In this document: piece after piece, positions 5,820 through 14,897 of the stretch
Position numbering within the stretch: the first letter of the stretch is position 1
Layout: the number at the start of each line of letters is the position of its first letter
Source of the DNA: Candidatus Binataceae bacterium
GTDB lineage: Bacteria > Desulfobacterota > Binatia > Binatales > Binataceae
Direction of reading: 5' to 3'
DNA length: 64,000 nucleotides
NCBI GenBank assembly: GCA_963722605.1
Contig: CAVRNO010000004.1
Location: forward strand, 410,335-474,334
The notes under the pieces: generated by a model
The model's input: the letters and a program-made list of their open reading frames with translations, nothing else
What the model was told of the DNA's origin: nothing
The model's database searches: none
Translations under genes and position numbers: made by a program

Positions 5820-6866
5820 ATGAGAGAACAACTCGAAGAAATCAGGCGCCGCGCGATGGCGGAACTCGGCGACGACGCCGCCGAAGCGCAAATCGACGCG
5901 GTTCGGGTGCGCGTGCTCGGCCGCTCGGGCGAGCTTACGGAAATCATGCGCGGGATGCGCGAGGTGCCGGCCGCCGAGCGCCCCGCGCTCGGCCAGCTCA
6001 TCAATCAGATCAAGCGCGAAGTCGAAGCGCGGATCGAGAGCCTGAGCGCGAAACTAAAGGCCGCGGCTCTCGCCCAATCGCTCAGTGAAAAACGGCTCGA
6101 CGTGACCCTGCCCGGCATGCGCATCGCGCGCGGCCGCATCCATCCGATCACCGACATCCTGGAAAAAATGCTGCAAATTTTCGAGTCGATGGGCTTCGAA
6201 GTCGCGATGACCCAGGATATCGAGGACGACTTTCACAACTTCGCCGCGCTCAACTTCACCCCGCATCATCCCGCCCGCGACATGCAGGACACCTTCTACC
6301 TCGAAGGCGGGATGATACTGCGAACCCATACCTCCAACGGCCAGATCCGGGTGATGGAAAAACGCCGGCCTCCCCTGGCGGTCGTTTGTCCGGGGCGATG
6401 CTACCGGCGCGACGACCTGACGGTGCGCAGCTCGCCGATGTTCACCCAGATCGAGGGTTTCATGGTCGATAAGCGCGGGCGCGTCACGATGGCGCATCTC
6501 AAGGGCGTGCTGACCGAATTCGCGCGCGCGTTTTTCGGCACGACCGCGGTCCGGTTTCGCGCCAGCTATTTTCCCTTCACCGAGCCGAGCGCCGAACTCG
6601 ACATGCATTGCCTGCTATGCGACGGCGCGGGATGCCCGGTCTGCAAGCATTCGGGATGGACCGAAGTGCTCGGCTGCGGAATGATCCATCCCAACGTGAT
6701 GCGCGCGGTCGAGTACGATCCCGAGGAATACCAGGGGTTCGCCTTCGGCCTGGGCGTCGAGCGCACCGGCCTGCTCAAGCTCGGGGTTGACGACATGCGG
6801 CTGTTTTTCGAGAACGACCTTCGCTTCTTGAGCCAGTTCCCGGCGCTCAGCGGAGGCGTGCGATGA
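5820..6866 (+). CDS. pheS: phenylalanyl-tRNA synthetase alpha subunit
   Basis: Starts MREQLEEIRRRAMAEL… (ATG 5820, GGGGAAGA RBS) inside the longer ORF 5523..6866. Class II motifs …FTPHHPARDMQDTFY…, …GRCYRRD…, …FPFTEPSAE…GCGMIHPNV…. Confidence 0.92.
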   Translation: MREQLEEIRRRAMAELGDDAAEAQIDAVRVRVLGRSGELTEIMRGMREVPAAERPALGQLINQIKREVEARIESLSAKLKAAALAQSLSEKRLDVTLPGMRIARGRIHPITDILEKMLQIFESMGFEVAMTQDIEDDFHNFAALNFTPHHPARDMQDTFYLEGGMILRTHTSNGQIRVMEKRRPPLAVVCPGRCYRRDDLTVRSSPMFTQIEGFMVDKRGRVTMAHLKGVLTEFARAFFGTTAVRFRASYFPFTEPSAELDMHCLLCDGAGCPVCKHSGWTEVLGCGMIHPNVMRAVEYDPEEYQGFAFGLGVERTGLLKLGVDDMRLFFENDLRFLSQFPALSGGVR

Positions 6867-9292
6867 AGCTCCCGCTCAGTTGGTTGAGGGACTTCGTCAG
6901 CATCGACGCGCCGGTCGAGGAAATCTCGCGCCGGCTCAGTTTCGCGGGATTAGTCGTCGAGAACGTCGAGAAACTCACGCCCGGATTCGCCCGCGTGTAC
7001 GCCGCCCGGGTGCTCCACGTCGAAAAGCATCCCAACGCCGACCGGCTCAGCCTTTGCGAGGTGGACGCCGGCCCAAAAGGCCAATTCAAAGTCGTGTGCG
7101 GCGCGCCCAACGTGAAGGCCGGGATGATGGCGGCGCTCGCTCTGGTTGGCGCGCAACTGGGCAAGCAGCCGCCGCTGGAGGCAGCCGTAATTCGCGGCGT
7201 GCGCTCCGAGGGCATGCTCTGCTCGGGGCGCGAGCTCGGCCTGTCGGATGAACAGGCTGGAATCCTTGCGCTCGGCGCGGATGCGCCGCTGGGCGGGGAC
7301 GTGGCCGCGTATTTGCACCTCGACGACATCGTGCTCGATGTCGAAATCACGCCGAATCGGGGCGATTGCCTGTCGATTCTCGGGCTGGCGCGCGAGATTG
7401 CAGCGTTGTTCGCCGCCAGGCTGCGCGCGCCAAGGCTGCGCGCGGCGCATAGCCCCGTCGCGCCCGGCGGCGAGCACGTTTCGCTTTCGGTTTCGATCGA
7501 AGCGCCCGATCTGTGCCCGCGTTACGCGGCGCTGGCGATGACCGGAATCAAGGTCGGTCCTTCGCCGGCGTGGCTTAAGCGCCGGCTGGAAGTATGCGGG
7601 ATGCGCGCGCTCAACAACGTGGTCGATGCGACCAACTACGTGATGCTCGAACTCGGCCAGCCCTTGCACGCGTTCGACTTCGGCAAAATTGCGGGCGGAG
7701 GGATTGTCGTCCGCCGCGCCGGCGCCACCAGCGAGTTCGTGACGCTGGACAACGTCGCGCGCGCTCTCGATTCAAACGATCTGCTGATCGCCGACAGCGA
7801 CAAGCCGCTGGCAATCGCGGGCGTGATGGGCGGACTCAACTCCGAGGTCGGCGACTCGACCGGGACTATTTTGCTCGAGAGCGCATACTTCGAGCCGATG
7901 ACGATAGCGCGCACCGCGCGCCGCCTGGGCTTGCGCAGCGAGGCAAGTTACCGCTTCGAGCGCGGCGTCGATCGCGCGGGACAGGTCGGCGCGCTGATTC
8001 GCGCGGCCGAATTGATCCGCAAGATCGCCGGCGGACGCGAGGCGTCGCCGATCGCCGACTTCGAGCCGCGCAAGGCCGAGCCGCGCGAGATTGCGCTCGA
8101 CCTGGGCGCGATGGAATCGCTGCTCGGCGCCGCGATACCGCCGGCCGTCGCCCGCAGCCGCCTCAAATCGCTGGGCGCGCAAGTGAGCACCCGCGCCAAG
8201 GGTGTGCTCGCGGTCGTGCCTCCGTCGTACCGCTCCGATCTGGCCGAGCAGGCCGATCTGATCGAGGAAGTCGCGCGCCTGGGCGGCCTCGAGGACATCC
8301 CGGCCCGGCTGCCCGCGCGCGTCAGCTCGCTGGCTCCGGTCAATCGCGAGCGTGATTTCTTGAAGGGCACGCGCGAGGTGATGCTGGGATGCGGGCTGAC
8401 CGAGGCCGCCACCATCGCGTTCATCGGGCCCGCCGACAACGCGCGCTTTCCGGGTATTGAAGCGGCGACGCGGCCGGTCAAGGTGACCAACCCGCTGTCG
8501 GCGGAACTGAGCGAGCTGCGGGTGAGCCTGATGCCGGGGCTGGTCGCCTCGCTCAGGTTCAATTTGAACCGCGAGGCGCGCGCCTTTCACGCGTTTGAAA
8601 TCGGCAAGACCTTTTGCATGCACGGCGACGCCGCGACCGAGCACGATCATCTCGCCGCGGTCAGCTACGGAACGTACGCCGTGTCCGCAATCGGCGAGCA
8701 GAGCGTGGCGGCGGGATTTTTTTCGATCAAGGGAATTCTCGAGACGTACCTGGAAGCGATTGGCATTTCGCCGCGAGTGGCGTACAAAGCTGTCGAGAGC
8801 GGCGAAGCGCCATTTCTTCCATTTCTGCATCCGGGGCGCAGCGCCGTGATCACGCTGGACGGCGCGGCGATCGGTTTGATCGGCGAGTTGCATCCGGCGG
8901 AAGCGATGCGGCTCGATCTGAGCGGTCCCTGCGCGGTGTATGAACTTGACTTGAGTGGGCTCATTGCCTATGGTTTCTCGCCGCGCAAAGCTTTCGAGCC
9001 GCCGCCAAAATATCCCGCGATCAGGCGCGATTTGGCGCTGGTGATGGATCGAAATTTCCCGGCGGATATGGTAGTCAAAGCCATTCGGGAGTGCGGCGCG
9101 TCGCTGCTGGAAAGCGTCGAGGTATTCGACGTGTACGAGGGGACGGCGGTGGCGGCCGGAAAAAAGAGCGTGGCGTTGGCTTGTCGTTACCGTGCAAAAG
9201 ATCGCACGCTGACCGATGAGGAGGTTAACCGCATTCACGCGCTGCTGGTGGAGCAGGCGCGGGTGCGATTAGGGGCTGAGTTGCGGAAGTAA
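6863..9292 (+). CDS. pheT: phenylalanyl-tRNA synthetase beta subunit
   Basis: 809 aa, MKLPLSWLRDFVSIDAPVEEI…, tRNA-binding, B3/4, B5 and FDX-ACB regions; ATGA overlap with pheS. Confidence 0.95.
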   Translation: MKLPLSWLRDFVSIDAPVEEISRRLSFAGLVVENVEKLTPGFARVYAARVLHVEKHPNADRLSLCEVDAGPKGQFKVVCGAPNVKAGMMAALALVGAQLGKQPPLEAAVIRGVRSEGMLCSGRELGLSDEQAGILALGADAPLGGDVAAYLHLDDIVLDVEITPNRGDCLSILGLAREIAALFAARLRAPRLRAAHSPVAPGGEHVSLSVSIEAPDLCPRYAALAMTGIKVGPSPAWLKRRLEVCGMRALNNVVDATNYVMLELGQPLHAFDFGKIAGGGIVVRRAGATSEFVTLDNVARALDSNDLLIADSDKPLAIAGVMGGLNSEVGDSTGTILLESAYFEPMTIARTARRLGLRSEASYRFERGVDRAGQVGALIRAAELIRKIAGGREASPIADFEPRKAEPREIALDLGAMESLLGAAIPPAVARSRLKSLGAQVSTRAKGVLAVVPPSYRSDLAEQADLIEEVARLGGLEDIPARLPARVSSLAPVNRERDFLKGTREVMLGCGLTEAATIAFIGPADNARFPGIEAATRPVKVTNPLSAELSELRVSLMPGLVASLRFNLNREARAFHAFEIGKTFCMHGDAATEHDHLAAVSYGTYAVSAIGEQSVAAGFFSIKGILETYLEAIGISPRVAYKAVESGEAPFLPFLHPGRSAVITLDGAAIGLIGELHPAEAMRLDLSGPCAVYELDLSGLIAYGFSPRKAFEPPPKYPAIRRDLALVMDRNFPADMVVKAIRECGASLLESVEVFDVYEGTAVAAGKKSVALACRYRAKDRTLTDEEVNRIHALLVEQARVRLGAELRK

Positions 9293-9335
9293 GCGTGCCT
9301 AACGCGAGCGGGTGGGGATCGTTACGCCGCAGGGC

Positions 9336-9629
9336 ATGACTAAGGCTGATCTCGTGGATTTGATCTACGAGCGGGTAGGCTCCTCCAAAAAGGAAGCCTG
9401 CGAAGTGGTCGAGGCGGTGTTTGCGATCATCAAGGATTCGTTGCGCCACGGTCAGAAAGTGAAAATTTCAGGCTTCGGCACCTTCCTGGTCAATCAAAAA
9501 CATGCGCGCCGCGGGCGCAACCCGCAGACCGGCGAGCCGATTACCATCGACTCGCGCCGGGTGCTCTCCTTCAAGCCGAGCCAGGTGTTGAAGGATCGGG
9601 TCAACAACGGCTCCAAGCAGGCCGGATGA
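9336..9629 (+). CDS. ihfA: integration host factor alpha subunit
   Basis: MTKADLVDLIYERVGSSKKEACEVVEAVFAIIKDSLRHGQKVKISGFGTFLVNQKHARRGRNPQTGEPITI… HU/IHF fold in the canonical position after pheT. Confidence 0.9.
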   Translation: MTKADLVDLIYERVGSSKKEACEVVEAVFAIIKDSLRHGQKVKISGFGTFLVNQKHARRGRNPQTGEPITIDSRRVLSFKPSQVLKDRVNNGSKQAG

Positions 9630-10096
9630 CGCCGATGCCACGCCAGCCATCGGTTGCGCGGCGAAAACCCAAGCCGGATGCGCGCGCGACGATGCCGCTG
9701 TTCCCCGAGCGGGGGCTCAAGATCGGCGAAGCAGCGCGCGCGCTTGGGGTCGAGACCTACGTGCTGCGTTTCTGGGAGACCCAGTTTCCATTTCTGAAAC
9801 CCCGGCACACCCGCACCAAGCATCGCTTCTACAATGAAAAGGACCTCGACGTGCTGCGCCTGATCAAGCGCCTGCTGCACGACGAAGGCTTCACGATCGC
9901 GGGCGCGAACAAGCACATCAAGGAATTCGGAATCGAAGCCTTAATGAGCGGCAAGCCGGTGGCAAAGCCAGCACCGCCGCCGCCGCAATCGGAGCGCACG
10001 CCTCATCGCCCCGCCGGAATCGACGGCCAAGCCCGCCGCGCACTCAACGAGGTGCGCCGCGAACTCGAATCAATCCACAAAATTTTAGAAGACTGA
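9626..10096 (+). CDS. MerR-family transcriptional regulator
   Basis: …GLKIGEAARALGVETYVLRFWETQFPFLKP… HTH_MerR; ATGA-coupled to ihfA. Alternative start at 9692 (MPLFPERGLKIG…). Confidence 0.8.
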   Translation: MTPMPRQPSVARRKPKPDARATMPLFPERGLKIGEAARALGVETYVLRFWETQFPFLKPRHTRTKHRFYNEKDLDVLRLIKRLLHDEGFTIAGANKHIKEFGIEALMSGKPVAKPAPPPPQSERTPHRPAGIDGQARRALNEVRRELESIHKILED

Positions 10097-10125
10097 GCAG
10101 CGCCCTGCGGTCGCCTACTTTTTGT

Positions 10126-10155
10126 GTCATCCCGACCGAAGTGGAGGGACCCCGG
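10126..10155. repeat. left terminal inverted repeat of retron island
   Basis: gtcatcccgaccgaagtggagggaccccgg; 27 of 30 identical to the reverse complement of 12561-12590. Confidence 0.6.
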
Positions 10156-10486
10156 ATCCGGATCTGCGTATGATCCGCGCTGAGATACCTCGCCCGTTAT
10201 TTTCACGGGAGAGGCGGCCGGCCGCCTTGCGGCCGGTAGGTGAGGGTGCAGCCGGCGAATGCTGACTCCCCTCGCGGCGCGATTTTGTGGTGCGGCGCGC
10301 ATTGCGCGCCCGTGACCGACGCGAAACTGGCTTTTCGGGCGATTTCGTGGGAGGCCAACTGTGCCCCCGCGGCGCCGGAAACACCGTGTGAACAAAACCG
10401 GCTTGGCACCTTGCAGAGGCAGGCCGTTGGGTCTGTAGCGGAGCTGGGCATCGGAGAGTCGAAACGGAAGTTCCGGCTTGCTCCAC

Positions 10487-10515
10487 TTGACGCGATACAT
10501 TCCAATTCGTATTCT
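10487..10515 (+). promoter_or_regulatory. sigma-70-type promoter of retron operon
   Basis: TTGACG-17 nt-TATTCT, predicted TSS ~10522 right at the a1 repeat. Confidence 0.45.
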
Positions 10516-10520
10516 CGTCT

Positions 10521-10676
10521 CGCTCTTAGCTGGGTTCCCGTTGACGAAACGCGAGCCTTATGCCGGGCGATTCGCCAGGCTGTTATGTATTGACCGTCAT
10601 GCTGCGGGCGGGTTTCTCACCCCGCCGAGCACGCTCAGCCGGGCTGAGAAACCCGCCGCGCTCAAAGTAAGAGCAA
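10521..10676 (+). ncRNA. candidate retron msr/msd ncRNA
   Basis: Between promoter and effector ATG. 5' cGCTCTTAg (10521-10529) can pair with 3' gTAAGAGCa (10667-10675) as a1/a2. Stem-loop GCCGGGCGattCGCCAGGC at 10562-10580. A 13 bp perfect stem GGCGGGTTTCTCA/TGAGAAACCCGCC (10607-10657) with a structured 25 nt interior, msd-like. Confidence 0.3.
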
Positions 10677-10678
10677 CG

Positions 10679-11269
10679 ATGAGCCACCCGTTCGATCATC
10701 CGGCGCTGTCCAAGCCTTTGGACAGCGCGATCAATGCCTTCAAAACAAAACGGGTTTCCTTACTTCAAGGAGCCAAGCTTATGTTCGTTTGTGGCGGGCC
10801 TACCGACTCGGTCCCGCCTACTGTACGGCAGAAGTTTCTTGATTGGGCGGCCACCAACATGCCTAATTGGAAGATGTTCTTGGCCGAGAAGGCCGCGGAA
10901 GATGCGCTCTCCAACACCAACCCGCCCCCTCTCAGACTCGCCAAATTCGAAGAATTTCTTGGCAGAGTTGCCGACTGTGTGATCGTATTCCCAGAATCGG
11001 TTGGGTCTTTTGCGGAGACGGGCTACTTCTCAGCCAAGCCCAAGGCCCTCGATAATATCTTGATCGTAAACTCCGACTCTGACGCTGGGCAAAGCAATTC
11101 ATTCCTTAACCGTGGGCCGATTGACGAAATCGAGCGAATCCCAACTAATAAGAAACTCGCGTTGGACTTCGCTGCAAACCCGCCAAACTTTTCACTCATA
11201 AAAGCGCGTCTCGAGGGAGTCCTCCCAAACGGAGGACCGGGGTCTCCATGGAGTCCTTCAAAGGTTTAA
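10679..11269 (+). CDS. retron effector, nucleoside 2-deoxyribosyltransferase-like (SLOG/NDT superfamily) protein
   Basis: 196 aa from MSHPFDH… inside ORF 10478..11269. …LMFVCGGPTDSV… glycine-rich motif and …VIVFPESVGSFAETGYFSA… matching the DSGTAFEIGYA catalytic-Glu motif of NDT. Sits immediately upstream of a retron RT, as for RcaT in retron Sen2. Confidence 0.6.
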   Translation: MSHPFDHPALSKPLDSAINAFKTKRVSLLQGAKLMFVCGGPTDSVPPTVRQKFLDWAATNMPNWKMFLAEKAAEDALSNTNPPPLRLAKFEEFLGRVADCVIVFPESVGSFAETGYFSAKPKALDNILIVNSDSDAGQSNSFLNRGPIDEIERIPTNKKLALDFAANPPNFSLIKARLEGVLPNGGPGSPWSPSKV

Positions 11270-11336
11270 GGGGCGTCGAGCAATTGGCGTTTTTGCTTTA
11301 CCTCTTCGGTTATTCCCGTCCCTCGACCTGGAAGGT

Positions 11337-12532
11337 ATGAAGCGAATTTTTCAGTCGGTATTTGGCACAGGAGGCTGGGATATTAAACGCGTGAGCCACC
11401 TCTTGTCCATCCTCGTCTCGGCGAAATACGTCGACCATCTGGCAGCCGATAACGACTATTATCATTTATCGGACCGCGCCGTCTCCACCATCGTTGATAG
11501 AGATCGTAGGCATAAACCCAGTCAACTGCTAATCCAACATCTCGATATTTATTCACGATATTTCCGACTTTGGTGCCTGCATAAAGAACTGCTGATGTTA
11601 GCTAACGTCCTAGCCGGAAAGACTGGTGTAACTGCTTTGTATATAGAGCAGCTAGCACGCTCGGCTAGTCATTTTTATAAGGTCTATACTATTGATAAGC
11701 GTAATGGTGACAGAAAAGGATCATCCAGCAGCCTTCGCGCGCACTCAAATTTCTCCAGCGCTGGATTGTCGCCAATGTTATACAAGATATTCCGATCCAT
11801 ACCGCCGCGGCGGCGTACGTAAAGGGCAGCAGCATTAGGCTGCATGCTGAGCGGCATGTTGCGAACAACTACCTTTTGAGGTTGGATTTTCAGCGGTTTT
11901 TCCCTTCGATTAAGGTGATCGACATAAGACGACATCTCGTTAAAAATCGGCCGTAGCTTCACTTTGTCGAGGACAGCGATATTGAGCTACTGGTCGCCGC
12001 AGTTACTCGCAGCGGTGGGCTAGTGATCGGCGCACCATCGTCGCCTGCCTTGTCGAATCAGATTATGTTTCAATTTGACGATCTCTTACACCGATGGTGT
12101 GCTGACTCAAACGTGACGTATTCGAGGTATGCTGACGATTTATATTTCTCCACTCGCATGCCTGGCGTCTTGGACGGTGCTCGCGAAAAGGTCGTGGAGC
12201 TTTTGAATTCAATAGACTACCCGCGGCTCCGCTTAAACGACGATAAAACGGTTCACACCTCACGGAAGAAGAAGCGGCTGGTCACAGGGTTGTCGCTTTC
12301 CTCTGACGGAAAGGTTTCATTGGGAAGAGAGAAGAAGCGCGAGATACGAAGCAGGATACATAAGCATGTCGTCGCAGGCTTGGAATCGGAAAAGCGGGCT
12401 TATTTGGCTGGCTACCTCGCATATGCGCGCTCCGTGGAACCACAGTTTATCGCTAGCTTGGACGGAAATACGGTCCAGAGACCGATGCGGGCTGTGATGA
12501 AGATGTCCCAGCCTCCAAGGTCTGGGCACTAG
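11337..12532 (+). pseudogene. retron-type reverse transcriptase, disrupted (frameshift at A4 run 11714-11717 plus in-frame TAG 11954-11956)
   Basis: Three collinear pieces align with Ec86/Ec67-class retron RTs. Frame 0 reaches …YKVYTIDKRNGD. Frame 2 carries KRIIQQPSRALKFLQRWIVANVI…GSSIRLHAERHVANNYLLRLDFQRFFPSI… up to the TAG. After the TAG comes …ELLVAAVTRSGGLVIGAPSSPALSNQIM…VTYSRYADDLYFS…NDDKTVHTSRKKKRLVTGLSLS…LGREKKREIRSRIHKH. One extra A in agaaaagga restores GDRKRIIQQPSRAL. A likelier true start is M at 11595 (MLANVLAGK…). Confidence 0.8.
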
Positions 12533-14897
12533 TAAAGCGCCCGACCTTTCGGGCGAGTACCCGGGGGCGCTCCGCTTCGGTCGGGATGACAAAGGAACGA
12601 GCGACGCAAAGAAAAAGATCCGGGATTCTTCGCTTCGCTCTAGAATGACACGGGCGCGGCGCATCGGGCGACGCAAAGAAGAAGACTGAAGAAACTAGTC
12701 GGAGAGGCGGTCTTGCGAAGCCAATTGGGCGGGGGCGGGGTTGCGGGCGGCGGCGGTATCTTTTGCGACGGAAGGCTGGGCGTATCAGAACGCCTAGCGG
12801 GGCTAGATTTAGTTCGGTTGCGCAATGCTCGGTGGCGCGATGGGCGGTGCGGCCGGCTTCTATCATTTCGGATGCTATGCATACCGCGCCGGCTATCGTG
12901 AGCGCGCCCAGGCCAAGCGCTATCTCGGGCAATCCCGCTATCGCGGCGAATCCCGCGCTTAGCGTGCCCGCCGCCAGAGCTATCTTGGTCATTCGAGTGG
13001 ATTTGATCCGCACCAGCACGCGGTTGGTGACTTTGCCCGCCTCGTGCTCTTCGTCGGCGGTCTTGAGTTCGATTCGGGTCCACGGATTGAGCCGTAGTTC
13101 GAGGTCGTAGTCGTTCCATCCGGGATCGACGATCGGGCCGTAGCCGCTGCGCGCGAACAGCTTGAGCATCCTGTCGATCAGGCGGTCGCGGGTGATGCTT
13201 TCGTTGTTCCAATAGTCCAGCCGGATGGTGCGCCTTAGCCAGTGGATGGTTGGGCGTTGGCGCACGCCGCTTTCGCCGGCGAGTGCGGTCAGGGCTTTCG
13301 CCCGCGTTTTGTAGCGCGTCATCGTTCGCACCATCGGGCCCGTGTAAGCAAGATACGCGATCAGAAGCCGCGCGGTGAGACTTTCGTGAGATTTTTCGAG
13401 CGGCGCATGCCACGCATAGTAGAGCGCCCAAATCGGCCCTAACGCGAGCATCGCAGCCGCGGGAACGATCGAGACGCCGAGTACGATCGACGCGGCGATC
13501 GCGATTGCGGAGAGCATCGTCCATTCGAGCGTCTGCGGGAGAACCATCGCCAGGGTAAGTCCGGGATCGGAAAGCGTCTGCGCGCCGGCGGTCGCGTTTT
13601 TCCACATCACGCGCATCCTGCTCCCGCCGGGAATGGTGCGCGCCAGGCCGGGAATCACCCCGCGCCACGCGATTTGGCCGAGCAGGTTGAAGCGCTCGGG
13701 ATATTTCGGAAAGAGCATCGCCTCGGCGCGTCCGTAGCCGCGCTGCTGTCCGTAGTAAGCCTTGATCGTGTTGCGGCGGAAGTGCCAGACGAAGGCGGCC
13801 GGCGAAAAACCGAGCTTGAAGCCGGCGTCGAGCATCCGCCAGCAGATGTCAACGTCGTCGCCGGCGGCGGTGAACTGCGGATCGAAGCCGCCGATTTTTG
13901 CGAGCGCCGCCTTGGCGAAGAGCATGTTGCATCCCGCCAGATGCTCGGCGCGATCGTCGGCGACCAGCACGTGGCACGGGGCGCCGGGCGAAGCGGCGCA
14001 ACTGGCTTCGATCCATCCGTCTTCGTGCGGCGCGTAGTTGGGACCGCCGCATCCGTCGAAGTTGTTTTCGACCATCGAGCGGACCGCCAGCGTCAGCCAA
14101 TGCGGATCGACGACGCAATCGGAATCGGTGTAGGCGATAATTTCGCCGCGCGCCGCCTGCATCCCGACGTTGCGCGCAACGGCGAGGCCCTTGTTGGGCT
14201 GGCGAATGAGGCGGAACTCGGGAAAATCCGTGGAGATGAGAGCGGTGCGATCGCGCGAGCCGTCATCGACGATGATGACCTCGAAATTGGGGTAGTCGAG
14301 GCGGCGCAGCGACTCGAGGCAATCGCGCATGGTGCGCTCGGCGTTGTAGGCGCAAATGACGACGGAGACCATCGGCATCCTGGGCGGCCGCGGCGGGCAG
14401 GTGCCGTTGAGGGTGACGAAGGGCATCAGCTCCGACGCGCGCATCATGCGCACGCCAAGCCAGTCGTGAGAAACCGGAGCAGGAACGGGCGGAGCAACCA
14501 CGCCAGCCGCACCCGTGCCAAACGCCACTGCGACCGCTTCGTCCTGCCCCGGCGATGCATGTTTGAATTCGATCACCACCGGCCGCGCTTCGGCGAGGTT
14601 GTGCAAGGCGACGACGAAGTCTCGAATCTGGACCGGCTCGAGCGCGGGAATTTCGGCGTAAAGAAAATCCTGTTCCAGGATTGAAAGGGCGCGGGTTTCC
14701 GGCCGGACCTTTATTCCGACAATCGCGCCGGGGGCGTATTCCTTGATCGTGTTGACGACGGCGCGCATCCGCCGCCGCGCGTTTTCGAGTCCGCCCGCGC
14801 GCAGCGCGTCCTGGCCGATCTCGCAATCGAGGATGTAACCGGCGAGCGCAGGATGCCTTCCAAAAATGTTTGCAGTATGCGCGATTCGCGAGAGCAC
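12453..14897 (-). CDS. membrane GT2-family glycosyltransferase (polysaccharide synthase-like), 3' end chimeric with island sequence
   Basis: …MPMVSVVICAYNAERTMRDCLESLRRLDYPNFEVIIVDDGSRDRT…DSDCVV…QQRGYGRAE… GT-A fold with D, DxD and Q(R/Q)xRW-like motifs, then multiple TM helices. The last ~80 codons (12453-12700) are read from low-GC island DNA antisense to the RT. The N-terminal ~185 aa before MPMVSVV is of unclear status. Confidence 0.7.
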   Translation of the reverse strand: MLSRIAHTANIFGRHPALAGYILDCEIGQDALRAGGLENARRRMRAVVNTIKEYAPGAIVGIKVRPETRALSILEQDFLYAEIPALEPVQIRDFVVALHNLAEARPVVIEFKHASPGQDEAVAVAFGTGAAGVVAPPVPAPVSHDWLGVRMMRASELMPFVTLNGTCPPRPPRMPMVSVVICAYNAERTMRDCLESLRRLDYPNFEVIIVDDGSRDRTALISTDFPEFRLIRQPNKGLAVARNVGMQAARGEIIAYTDSDCVVDPHWLTLAVRSMVENNFDGCGGPNYAPHEDGWIEASCAASPGAPCHVLVADDRAEHLAGCNMLFAKAALAKIGGFDPQFTAAGDDVDICWRMLDAGFKLGFSPAAFVWHFRRNTIKAYYGQQRGYGRAEAMLFPKYPERFNLLGQIAWRGVIPGLARTIPGGSRMRVMWKNATAGAQTLSDPGLTLAMVLPQTLEWTMLSAIAIAASIVLGVSIVPAAAMLALGPIWALYYAWHAPLEKSHESLTARLLIAYLAYTGPMVRTMTRYKTRAKALTALAGESGVRQRPTIHWLRRTIRLDYWNNESITRDRLIDRMLKLFARSGYGPIVDPGWNDYDLELRLNPWTRIELKTADEEHEAGKVTNRVLVRIKSTRMTKIALAAGTLSAGFAAIAGLPEIALGLGALTIAGAVCIASEMIEAGRTAHRATEHCATELNLAPLGVLIRPAFRRKRYRRRPQPRPRPIGFARPPLRLVSSVFFFASPDAPRPCHSRAKRRIPDLFLCVARSFVIPTEAERPRVLARKVGRFTSAQTLEAGTSSSQPASVSGPYFRPS
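12561..12590. repeat. right terminal inverted repeat of retron island
   Basis: ccgggggcgctccgcttcggtcgggatgac; reverse complement is gtcatcccgaccgaagcggagcgcccccgg. Confidence 0.6.

What the first reader, a model, noticed from the sequence alone, without database searches (positions are those of the whole stretch)
10487..10676. Candidate msr/msd ncRNA with a1/a2 pairing and a 13 bp msd-like stem directly upstream of the effector gene
A TTGACG-17-TATTCT promoter places the TSS at ~10522, exactly where cGCTCTTAg begins. Its complement gTAAGAGCa lies at 10667-10675, just before the effector ATG, giving an a1/a2-like clamp around ~145 nt. Within that span sit a GCCGGGCG/CGCCAGGC hairpin and a perfect 13 bp stem GGCGGGTTTCTCA / TGAGAAACCCGCC enclosing a 25 nt structured interior. 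The order ncRNA-effector-RT matches retron Sen2 (msrmsd-rcaT-RT).
Basis: partly seen in the sequence, partly recalled or inferred. Interest (0 to 1): 0.55.

Follow-up and report, generated by a model that had tools for sequence, protein, structure and literature searches.

The report
Retron msr-msd RNA gene, relic operon
The flagged leader is a genuine retron non-coding RNA gene (the template for a small satellite DNA used in anti-phage defence) of the well-known St85/Sen2 family, sitting in a Candidatus Binatus genome in front of an effector gene and a reverse-transcriptase gene that both read as broken, so it is an ordinary, probably defunct, member of a known system.

Summary
Observation confirmed, interpretation supported.

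- **Fold.** The region folds much better than shuffles (z = -4.4).
- **Comparative evidence (decisive).** A covariance model built from this leader and five close relatives finds one site in the window. It also finds the equivalent site, same strand and about 1 kb upstream of the RT, in roughly 95 loci from many phyla that carry St85-family retron RTs.
- **Covariation.** In a 36-sequence alignment, 91% of cells pair, against 37-46% for slid controls. All 7 a1/a2 pairs and all 20 msd-stem pairs covary. The msd stem almost lacks G·U pairs (0.6% against 11-12% in the msr hairpins), as expected for a stem that must also form in the cDNA.
- **Link to the curated family.** The same model hits the leader of an annotated E. 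coli St85-family retron exactly where Rfam msr passes its gathering score. The window itself scores only 24 bits on Rfam msr.
- **Protein genes.** They match NCBIfam retron St85 effector and RT. Relative to intact homologues they carry at least 7 one-base indels and one TAG stop, so no msDNA is expected.

Verdict: a new member of a known kind (type II-A1 retron), probably a relic. Low interest.

The parts
10365..10486 (+). Conserved block upstream of the promoter. It marks the left end of the about 2.2-kb unit shared with retrons in other genomic contexts. Function unknown.
   Evidence: blastn and MAFFT homology with L001, L005 and L007 starts at window 10365/10366. It is absent from the more distant relatives L009 and L010. 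No shared ORF or consensus fold was found.
10487..10515 (+). Sigma-70-type promoter: TTGACG, 17 nt, TATTCT. The -10 hexamer ends 6 nt before a1.
   Evidence: A promoter scoring at least 9 of 12, with its -10 hexamer ending 4-12 nt (mostly 6-8 nt) before a1, is present in 29 of 36 related loci, against 0.6% of random control positions.
10522..10528 (+). a1 arm (GCUCUUA), the predicted 5' end of msr.
   Evidence: Pairs with 10668-10674 in the MFE fold. All 7 pairs covary and 99.2% of cells pair in 36 sequences.
10529..10529 (+). Candidate branching G, whose 2'-OH would prime the cDNA. It lies in the UUAG context.
   Evidence: Unpaired in the MFE fold. G in 31 of 36 aligned sequences. Its role as the priming residue is inferred by analogy with characterised retrons (PMC11701397).
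10532..10558 (+). msr stem-loop 1.
   Evidence: All 10 pairs (helices 3 and 4) show double-sided changes; 93% and 82% of cells pair; 11.8% of cells are G·U.
10562..10580 (+). msr stem-loop 2 (GCCGGGCG-AUU-CGCCAGGC), nearly invariant across the family and followed by the conserved single strand UGUAUUGA (10586-10593).
   Evidence: 100% of cells pair, with one covarying pair, CG to UA. This hairpin drives the Rfam msr match. The same hairpin, GUCGGGCGAUUAGCCAGAC, occurs in the E. coli St85-family retron.
10604..10661 (+). msd stem-loop, the template for the DNA part. The perfect 13-bp core is 10607-10619 with 10645-10657.
   Evidence: All 20 pairs covary, 96.6% of cells pair, and only 0.6% are G·U. 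The window carries its own compensatory variant: UCUCA/UGAGA where L001 has UCGAC/GUCGA.
10662..10667 (+). UCAA-AG linker just 5' of a2. Its complement would give TTGA at the predicted 5' end of the msDNA.
   Evidence: The UCNA motif is conserved in the alignment. TAGA or TTGA is the tetranucleotide reported as important for msDNA cleavage in Sen2, Vc95 and Ec83 (PMC11701397). Applying this here is inference.
10668..10674 (+). a2 arm (UAAGAGC). It is also the only Shine-Dalgarno-like sequence before the effector ATG.
   Evidence: The effector start lies 4 nt downstream here and 4-15 nt downstream in 30 of 35 loci.
10679..11583 (+). Retron St85-family effector gene (RcaT/STM3845-like: NDT-like N-terminal domain plus a C-terminal DNA-binding domain). 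It reads as a pseudogene.
   Evidence: NF038232 at 105.4 bits; PADLOC NDT_II-A at 4e-33. One-base deletions at about 11216, 11308, 11525 and 11568 relative to L001 and L005, which have intact genes of 323 and 311 codons.
11595..12532 (+). Retron St85-family reverse transcriptase gene. It reads as a pseudogene.
   Evidence: The reconstructed product scores 326.6 bits on NF038233 and is 87% identical to the intact P0001. Lesions: a -1 deletion at about 11710; TAG at 11953-11955 where relatives have TAC or CAC; a compensated pair, -1 at about 12462 and +1 at about 12482.
12533..12590 (+). Conserved tail after the RT stop codon, containing the GC-rich hairpin GCGCCCGACCTTTCGGGCG. It is the right end of the shared unit.
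   Evidence: Alignment; blastn homology with L001 and L002 ends at 12590.

Best explanation
Window 10522-10674 (+) is the msr-msd gene of a type II-A1 (St85/Sen2-family) retron carried by a Candidatus Binatus genome.

How the family works (established knowledge; applying it to this element is inference):
1. One promoter (10487-10515) starts transcription at the first base of a1.
2. The RNA folds so that a1 (10522-10528) clamps a2 (10668-10674). This presents G10529 beside the 3' end of the msd template.
3. The cognate RT recognises the two msr hairpins (10532-10558 and 10562-10580), primes from the 2'-OH of that G, and copies the msd stem-loop (10661 back to about 10600). The product would be a branched msDNA of roughly 65-75 nt.
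4. RT plus msDNA hold the RcaT-like effector toxin inactive until phage interferes with them.

In this copy the RNA gene and its promoter look intact. The effector and RT genes carry several frameshifts and a stop codon. The locus is therefore most likely a recently inactivated relic that may still be transcribed but can no longer make msDNA.
For: Shown here:
- All named sequence features are present and the fold is significant.
- The protein genes match the St85-family retron effector and RT. The closest intact homologues (87-55% identity) have the same leader directly before the effector.
- Model R1 finds the element once in the window. In about 95 loci with St85-family RTs it finds the element on the RT strand 0.9-1.25 kb upstream of the RT match, with one exception (L147) where the hit lies downstream of the RT.
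- Covariation: 91.3% of cells pair against 37-46% for slid partners; 44 of 49 pairs have double-sided changes; 0 of 500 shuffles reach any of the five measures; a1/a2 covaries at 7 of 7 pairs and the msd stem at 20 of 20.
- G·U pairs make up 0.6% of msd-stem cells against 11-12% in the msr hairpins. This fits a stem that must also pair in the complementary DNA.
- The promoter sits at a fixed distance from a1 in 29 of 36 loci.
- Bridge to the curated family: in an E. coli genome annotated with St85-family effector and RT, RF00170 msr scores 53.4 bits (GA 52) at 1488-1557, and R1 hits 1486-1652.
- Lesions were mapped against three intact relatives, while pheT, ihfA, merR, the glycosyltransferase and the HisKA gene flanking the retron are full length.

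From the literature:
- The architecture (two msr stem-loops, a1/a2, a promoter about 6 bp before msr, and the order msr-msd, ORF, ret) matches Sen2 and Vmi1 (PMC11701397).
- The tripartite toxin/antitoxin mechanism is described in bioRxiv 10.1101/2020.06.22.160168.
- Type II-A1 is defined as an NDT-like effector plus the IA/IIA1 ncRNA class in PMC7736814.
Against: - The window's leader does not reach the Rfam msr gathering score (24.2 against 52), and neither do 18 other related loci tested in gathering mode.
- No msDNA, transcript or 5' end has been observed.
- The a1/a2 arms are invariant among the closest relatives, so covariation there comes only from more distant family members.
- The 36-sequence alignment was fitted to the model, which biases pair counts towards the structure, although the slid controls argue strongly that the signal is real.
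- 'Relic' depends on the indels being real. The source appears to be a metagenome-assembled genome, so consensus errors in a strain-variable island cannot be excluded.
Confidence: 0.7

Rival explanations
1. The retron is intact and functional, and the eight lesions in the effector and RT genes are assembly or consensus errors in a strain-variable, lower-coverage island of a metagenome-assembled genome. The ncRNA would then be actively used to make msDNA.
For: Six of the seven indels are single-base deletions, which is also the typical bias of long-read consensus errors. The host PheT sequence is held only as an unnamed NCBI/ENA record on a 938-kb contig, consistent with a metagenome-assembled genome. 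The site between merR and the glycosyltransferase differs between close strains, so mixed coverage is plausible. The ncRNA and promoter carry no damaging change.
Against: About 8 kb of flanking genes (pheT, ihfA, merR, glycosyltransferase, HisKA) have no frame breaks, against 8 lesions in 1.85 kb. One lesion is a substitution that creates TAG. Most deletions are not in homopolymers. The syntenic relative L002 also has a damaged copy, with an IS3-like transposase start inside the effector and a contig break there in three assemblies. This suggests real decay of this retron in the lineage.
Confidence: 0.25
2. The leader is an ordinary structured 5' UTR or attenuator of the effector mRNA and is not reverse transcribed. 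The hairpins regulate transcription or translation only.
For: The a2 arm overlaps the only Shine-Dalgarno-like sequence 4 nt before the ATG, so the fold could regulate translation. No msDNA data exist for any close relative.
Against: The element co-occurs with retron RTs across phyla. It is homologous to the leader that Rfam msr recognises in E. coli. The msd stem has no T-run terminator. The near-absence of G·U pairs in that stem only points to a requirement at the DNA level. In enterobacterial members the effector start lies 45-80 nt away, yet a1/a2 is still conserved.
Confidence: 0.04
3. The inverted repeats are chance matches, or a REP-like or terminator palindrome belonging to the upstream merR operon, unrelated to the retron genes.
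For: A 7-nt complementary pair within about 150 nt is not rare by chance, and GC-rich genomes contain many palindromes.
Against: Fold z = -4.4. The element travels with the retron genes into unrelated genomic contexts. There is covariation at 44 of 49 pairs. Sister genomes without the retron lack the element downstream of merR.
Confidence: 0.01

Closest known systems
Retron-Sen2 (St85) of Salmonella Typhimurium and its relatives Retron-Eco9 and Retron-Vmi1; type II-A1 of Mestre et al. 2020
   Same: The gene order is msr-msd, RcaT/STM3845-like effector, RT. The proteins match the NCBIfam St85-family models. The ncRNA has a1/a2, a G after a1, two msr stem-loops and one msd stem-loop. The promoter ends about 6 nt before msr (PMC11701397). 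There is a TNGA-type tetranucleotide at the predicted 5' end of the msDNA. The near-invariant second msr hairpin is shared with the E. coli St85-family retron.
   Different: The host is Candidatus Binatus (Binatota), not an enterobacterium or vibrio. The predicted msd is shorter (about 65-75 nt against 85). The effector start abuts a2 (4 nt), whereas the E. coli and Mangrovibacter members have a 67-80 nt spacer with a hairpin. Both protein genes are disrupted here. The leader is below the Rfam msr threshold.
Rfam RF00170 (Retron msr RNA)
   Same: It is the top-scoring of the five sub-threshold Rfam matches in the region, centred on the GCCGGGCG/CGCCAGGC hairpin and the UAUUGA motif. The homologous E. 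coli leader passes the gathering score.
   Different: The window scores 24.2 bits against a gathering score of 52. RF00170 models msr alone (69 positions, no a2 or msd), and its outer helix is not the a1/a2 helix supported here.
Retron-Eco1 (Ec86), type II-A3
   Same: An NDT-like effector plus RT plus an ncRNA with a UUAG branch context at the end of a1. The Ec86 sequence is from my own memory and was not tested here.
   Different: It belongs to a different RT clade (clade 9 against clade 1) and a different ncRNA class according to PMC7736814. No sequence comparison was run.

Membership tests
Retron (msr-msd / RT / effector system) | A retron-clade reverse transcriptase encoded next to the ncRNA. 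| tested here: met
   The reconstructed RT scores 326.6 bits on NF038233 (cut-off 235), and the C-terminal fragment scores 202 bits on PADLOC RT_II-A. The gene is present but reads as disrupted.
Retron (msr-msd / RT / effector system) | The ncRNA ends (a1/a2) pair so as to enclose msr and msd. | tested here: met
   10522-10528 pairs with 10668-10674. All 7 pairs covary and 99.2% of cells pair.
Retron (msr-msd / RT / effector system) | A conserved priming G immediately 3' of a1. | tested here: met
   G10529; G in 31 of 36 aligned sequences. Its chemistry (the 2'-5' branch) was not testable.
Retron (msr-msd / RT / effector system) | One to three msr hairpins and a long, stable msd stem-loop. | tested here: met
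   Two msr hairpins and a 19-pair msd stem, all supported by covariation. A possible third short helix (10582-10594) is not supported (55% of cells pair).
Retron (msr-msd / RT / effector system) | Production of branched multicopy single-stranded DNA. | not testable with these tools
   This needs msDNA extraction. With the RT as it reads (frameshift at about codon 39 and a TAG), none is expected from this copy.
Type II-A1 / St85 (Sen2) family | An effector with an N-terminal NDT-like domain and a C-terminal DNA-binding domain (STM3845/RcaT family), encoded between the ncRNA and the RT. | tested here: met
   NF038232 at 105.4 bits (cut-off 100) on the N-terminal 196-aa fragment; PADLOC NDT_II-A at 4e-33. 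Homologues carry Pfam PF28093 STM3845. The C-terminal domain is recognisable only after frame correction.
Type II-A1 / St85 (Sen2) family | An RT of the St85 family (NCBIfam NF038233). | tested here: met
   Database neighbours are named 'retron St85 family RNA-directed DNA polymerase'.
Rfam RF00170 msr | A score at or above the curated gathering threshold (52 bits). | tested here: not met
   24.2 bits, E 0.68. None of 19 related loci passed in gathering mode. The E. coli St85-family leader passes at 53.4 bits, so the shortfall reflects the narrowness of the model.
Type II-A2 (Mestre et al.: a conserved frameshift separates the NDT and DNA-binding domains, with the latter fused to the RT) | A single conserved frameshift between the domains, with otherwise intact genes. 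| tested here: not met
   The window superficially resembles this type, because ORF 11337-11822 joins the C-terminal domain to the RT N-terminus. However, there are four separate deletions in the effector plus further RT lesions, and the closest relatives have unsplit effectors.

The most novel reading that the evidence does not exclude
In the non-enterobacterial St85-family retrons, including this one, the a2 arm (UAAGAG[G/C]) is also the Shine-Dalgarno sequence of the toxin gene, whose start codon follows 4-15 nt later in 30 of 35 loci. Formation of the a1/a2 clamp, the same helix that licenses reverse transcription, would then occlude the toxin's ribosome-binding site. Toxin translation would be coupled in cis to the folding and processing state of the ncRNA. 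This layer of retron toxin control has not, to my knowledge, been described.
Probability: 0.2. Interest if true: 0.45.

Novelty: new member of a known kind. Interest (0 to 1): 0.25.

Why it matters
It confirms that a sequence-only reader can correctly call a retron ncRNA.

It extends the St85/Sen2 retron family, with a well-supported ncRNA structure, to Candidatus Binatus, and shows that the curated Rfam msr model misses most non-enterobacterial members. The 36-sequence alignment and model made here could seed a broader family.

Two side results may interest retron engineers. The msd stem is almost free of G·U pairs, which gives a computational signature for the part that is reverse transcribed. 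The a2 arm overlaps the effector's ribosome-binding site.

For the biology of this genome it matters little, because the operon reads as dead.

Tried and rejected
- **Inverted RT segment.** I first suspected that 11720-12020 in the RT was inverted or replaced, because the forward frame broke there. Six-frame translation showed a simple -1 frameshift plus a TAG. Rejected.
- **Rfam.** The evalue-mode search on the window gave only a sub-threshold msr hit. Gathering mode on 19 related loci gave no msr hit; the first attempt exceeded the size limit.
- **tRNA target.** No tRNA was found in 9000-14000, so there is no tRNA-linked integration.
- **Type II-A2.** Considered because of the 'conserved frameshift' architecture (PMC7736814). 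Rejected because there are multiple independent lesions and the closest relatives have unsplit effectors.
- **Retron in sister genomes.** Loci L172, L173 and L174 lack the ncRNA at the pheT-ihfA-merR site and carry different cargo there.
- **Upstream block 10365-10486.** No shared ORF, no consensus fold, no sigma-54-type spacing. Unexplained.
- **Alternative ncRNA at 11270-11594.** There is no model hit there. The inverted repeats in that range are short and imperfect and lie inside coding sequence.
- Two early family scans failed because I was one base off on the effector ATG, using 10680 instead of 10679.

Full report
**1. What is in the sequence**

Between merR (ends 10096) and a glycosyltransferase gene on the minus strand lies a segment of lower G+C content (0.44-0.53, against 0.61-0.66 in the flanks). 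Reading one search gives these features:
- a TTGACG-17-TATTCT promoter (10487-10515);
- GCTCTTA at 10522-10528, followed by G10529;
- a hairpin, GCCGGGCG (10562-10569) with CGCCAGGC (10573-10580);
- a perfect 13-bp stem, 10607-10619 with 10645-10657, enclosing 25 nt;
- TAAGAGC at 10668-10674;
- the ATG of the next ORF at 10679.

The 13-bp stem extends to 18 nt at 94% complementarity and is the longest inverted repeat in 10100-11700. RNA 10521-10678 folds at -76.2 kcal/mol against -56.2 +/- 4.6 for shuffles (z = -4.38). The MFE structure contains the a1/a2 clamp with G10529 unpaired, two hairpins (10532-10558 and 10562-10580) and the long stem-loop 10604-10661.

**2. The genes behind it**

- The ORF at 10679-11269 matches PADLOC NDT_II-A (4e-33) and NCBIfam NF038232 'retron St85 family effector protein' (105.4 bits, cut-off 100).
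- The ORF at 12023-12532 matches RVT_1, PADLOC RT_II-A (3.6e-60) and NF038233 'retron St85 family RT'.
- Six-frame translation shows the RT starting at ATG 11595. The reconstructed 312-aa product scores 326.6 bits on NF038233 (cut-off 235). It is 87% identical to an intact 315-aa protein, P0001, which is encoded in Candidatus Binatus soli UBA7539 (L011).
- Aligning the window DNA with intact relatives shows these lesions:
  - effector: one-base deletions at about 11216, 11308, 11525 and 11568;
  - RT: a one-base deletion at about 11710;
  - RT: TAG at 11953-11955 where relatives have TAC or CAC;
  - RT: a compensated pair, -1 at about 12462 and +1 at about 12482.
- The flanking genes pheT (809 aa), ihfA, merR, the glycosyltransferase and HisKA are full length compared with relatives.
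- The host is a Candidatus Binatus species, judging from PheT neighbours.

**3. Comparative evidence for the RNA**

The leader is present directly before the effector start in every close relative that has upstream sequence (L001/L011, L005/L006, L007, L009, L010).

In these relatives the msr half is almost invariant. The msd stem changes with compensation: UCUCA/UGAGA in the window against UCGAC/GUCGA in L001.

I built covariance model R1 from six of these sequences and searched 170 loci that had been collected only by RT similarity:
- It hit 60 of 79 genome loci and 35 of 80 metagenome loci, always on the RT strand. In all but one (L147, where the hit lies downstream of the RT) it lies 0.9-1.25 kb upstream of the RT match, that is, just before the effector.
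- Many of the misses are contigs too short to hold the site.
- The hosts span Acidobacteriota, several proteobacterial classes, Nitrospira, Campylobacterota and others.
- In the 64-kb window the only hits are 10520-10678 (171.6 bits) and the reverse-strand echo of the palindromic msd stem.

**4. Covariation**

On the 36 best matches (A3), one search gives:
- 91.3% of cells form standard pairs, against 37-46% when the 3' partners are slid by 1-3 columns.
- 44 of 49 pairs have changes on both sides.
- None of 500 shuffles reaches the observed value on any of the five measures.

| Helix | Pairs that covary | Cells paired |
|---|---|---|
| a1/a2 | 7 of 7 | 99.2% |
| msr stem-loop 1 | 10 of 10 | 93% and 82% (two sub-helices) |
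| msr stem-loop 2 | 1 of 6 (CG to UA); otherwise near-invariant | 100% |
| msd stem | 20 of 20 | 96.6% |
| short helix 10582-10594 | not supported | 55% |

Caveat: A3 is fitted to the model. However, the slid control uses the same alignment.

G·U pairs make up 0.6% of msd-stem cells and 2.8% of a1/a2 cells, but 11.8% and 10.6% of cells in the two msr hairpins. A stem that must also form in the complementary cDNA cannot tolerate G·U, because it becomes C·A in the DNA. This asymmetry is independent support that 10604-10661 is the part that is reverse transcribed (inference).

The base after a1 is G in 31 of 36 sequences.

**5. Promoter**

A sigma-70-like promoter scoring at least 9 of 12, with its -10 hexamer ending 4-12 nt (mostly 6-8 nt) before a1, occurs in 29 of 36 loci, against 0.6% of random control positions. 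This matches the description of retron-Vmi1 and Sen2, where the promoter lies 6 bp upstream of msr (PMC11701397).

**6. Link to curated and experimentally characterised retrons**

- Rfam msr (RF00170) is the top-scoring of the five sub-threshold Rfam matches in 9500-13500, but it scores only 24.2 bits against a gathering score of 52 (E 0.68). None of 19 related loci passes in gathering mode.
- In E. coli HS30-1, RefSeq annotates 'retron St85 family effector protein' and 'retron St85 family RNA-directed DNA polymerase'. There, RF00170 scores 53.4 bits at 1488-1557 and R1 hits 1486-1652 (E 5e-9). The two models therefore recognise the same element.
- The E. coli leader shares the GUCGGGCGAUUAGCCAGAC hairpin and the UUAUUGA motif with the window.
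- The literature describes the St85/Vmi1 class as msr-msd, ORF (RcaT-like), ret, with two RNA stem-loops and a1/a2 repeats (PMC11701397).
- The literature also assigns Sen2 to type II-A1, with an NDT-like effector and ncRNA class IA/IIA1 (PMC7736814).
- The RNA tetranucleotide UCAA (10662-10665) just before a2 would give 5'-TTGA in the msDNA. TAGA or TTGA is the tetranucleotide reported as important for msDNA cleavage in Sen2, Vc95 and Ec83 (PMC11701397). Relatives have UCAA, UCGA or UCUA there.

**7. Mechanism**

The family mechanism is established, not shown here. The RT primes from the 2'-OH of the branch G and copies msd into msDNA. RT plus msDNA neutralise the RcaT toxin, and perturbing msDNA releases it (bioRxiv 10.1101/2020.06.22.160168). 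For this copy I infer an msDNA of roughly 65-75 nt templated by about 10600-10666.

As the sequence reads, the RT is truncated after about 39 codons, so no msDNA can be made. The toxin is also broken, which would make loss of the antitoxin harmless. That order of events is inference.

With 7 indels in 1.85 kb, the expected number in the 153-nt RNA gene is about 0.6. Its intactness therefore does not demonstrate continued selection.

**8. Context and history**

- The unit shared with retrons in unrelated contexts spans 10365-12590.
- The site between merR and the glycosyltransferase is variable among Binatus genomes. L174 carries a DUF2971 protein, RidA and a TPP enzyme there. L172 and L173 carry other genes and have no retron RNA.
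- L002 has the same right-hand synteny (RT, glycosyltransferase, HisKA, sigma-54 regulator). Its divergence from the window is equal in the flanks (87.8%) and the RT (88.0%), which suggests an orthologous insertion.
- In L002 the effector is interrupted. The sequence upstream of the break reads, on the reverse strand, as the start of an IS3-type transposase. That is my reading of the sequence, not a tool result. Three assemblies break at that point.
- Independent inactivation of the toxin in two lineages fits real decay rather than sequencing error. Assembly error in a strain-variable island still cannot be excluded, and I give that rival 0.25.

**9. Things that remain open**

- The 120-nt block upstream of the promoter (10365-10486) is conserved only among the closest relatives. 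It has no ORF or fold that I could find.
- In 30 of 35 loci the effector start lies 4-15 nt after a2, and a2 (UAAGAG[G/C]) is the only Shine-Dalgarno-like sequence available. The a1/a2 helix may therefore also gate toxin translation. In enterobacterial members the start is 45-80 nt away, behind a hairpin, yet a2 is still conserved, so this would be at most a secondary role.

**10. Verdict**

This is a new member of a known kind (type II-A1, St85/Sen2-family retron ncRNA) in a Binatus genome, attached to an operon that reads as dead. Interest is low (0.25). The most novel reading that is not excluded is the a2/Shine-Dalgarno coupling (probability about 0.2).

Noticed in passing
window 10365-10486: A block of about 120 nt upstream of the retron promoter is conserved (about 80-85%) with L001, L005 and L007, which sit in unrelated genomic contexts. 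It is absent from the more distant relatives L009 and L010. It contains an imperfect 14-nt inverted repeat (10374-10387 with 10464-10477). I found no shared ORF and no consensus fold, so its function is unknown.
   Followed up: partly
window 10668-10681, and 35 related loci: The a2 arm UAAGAG(G/C) is purine-rich and resembles a Shine-Dalgarno sequence. The effector start codon follows 4-15 nt later in 30 of 35 loci (4 nt in the window's clade). The a1/a2 helix would therefore occlude the toxin's ribosome-binding site. Enterobacterial members instead have a 45-80 nt spacer containing a hairpin.
   Followed up: partly
window 10097-12700, compared with L172, L173, L174 and L002: The interval between merR (downstream of pheST-ihfA) and the glycosyltransferase gene is a variable-cargo site in Candidatus Binatus genomes. 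It holds the retron in the window, DUF2971 + RidA + a TPP enzyme in L174, and other hypothetical genes in L172 and L173.
   Followed up: partly
L002 1-400 (also L003, L004): In the syntenic relative the retron effector is cut off at its 5' side. The adjoining sequence reads on the reverse strand as MKGSRFSEEQIIGVLREHE, which looks like the start of an IS3-family OrfA (my own reading; no tool was run). Three independent assemblies break here. The RT downstream is intact.
   Followed up: no
window 12560-12660; L002 about 1750-1900; L005 about 6000-6130: There are repeated copies of a motif resembling TTCGCTTCGCTC(A/T)(G/A)GATGAC downstream of the retron and in relatives' flanks. It looks like a dispersed REP-like element of these genomes. 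In addition, an Rfam Acido-Lenti-1 RNA hit (55 bits, GA 37) lies about 220 nt upstream of the retron ncRNA in L042 (2151-2196, minus strand).
   Followed up: no
L171 1560-1678: The msd part of the E. coli St85-family retron gives a sub-threshold match to Rfam STnc400 (53 bits, GA 80). This suggests that the Salmonella 'sRNA' family STnc400 may correspond to the retron Sen2 msd region.
   Followed up: no
L147 2441-2634; L135 4940-5086 (minus strand): There are additional model R1 hits that are not upstream of the RT used to fetch the locus. One lies downstream of the RT in L147 and one lies on the opposite strand in L135. They may be second retrons or orphan ncRNAs.
   Followed up: no
window 11337-11822: After the two upstream deletions, the effector's C-terminal domain is in frame with the RT start. 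This produces an ORF that mimics the 'DNA-binding domain fused to RT' arrangement described for type II-A2 retrons (PMC7736814). Here it appears to be an accident of decay.
   Followed up: yes
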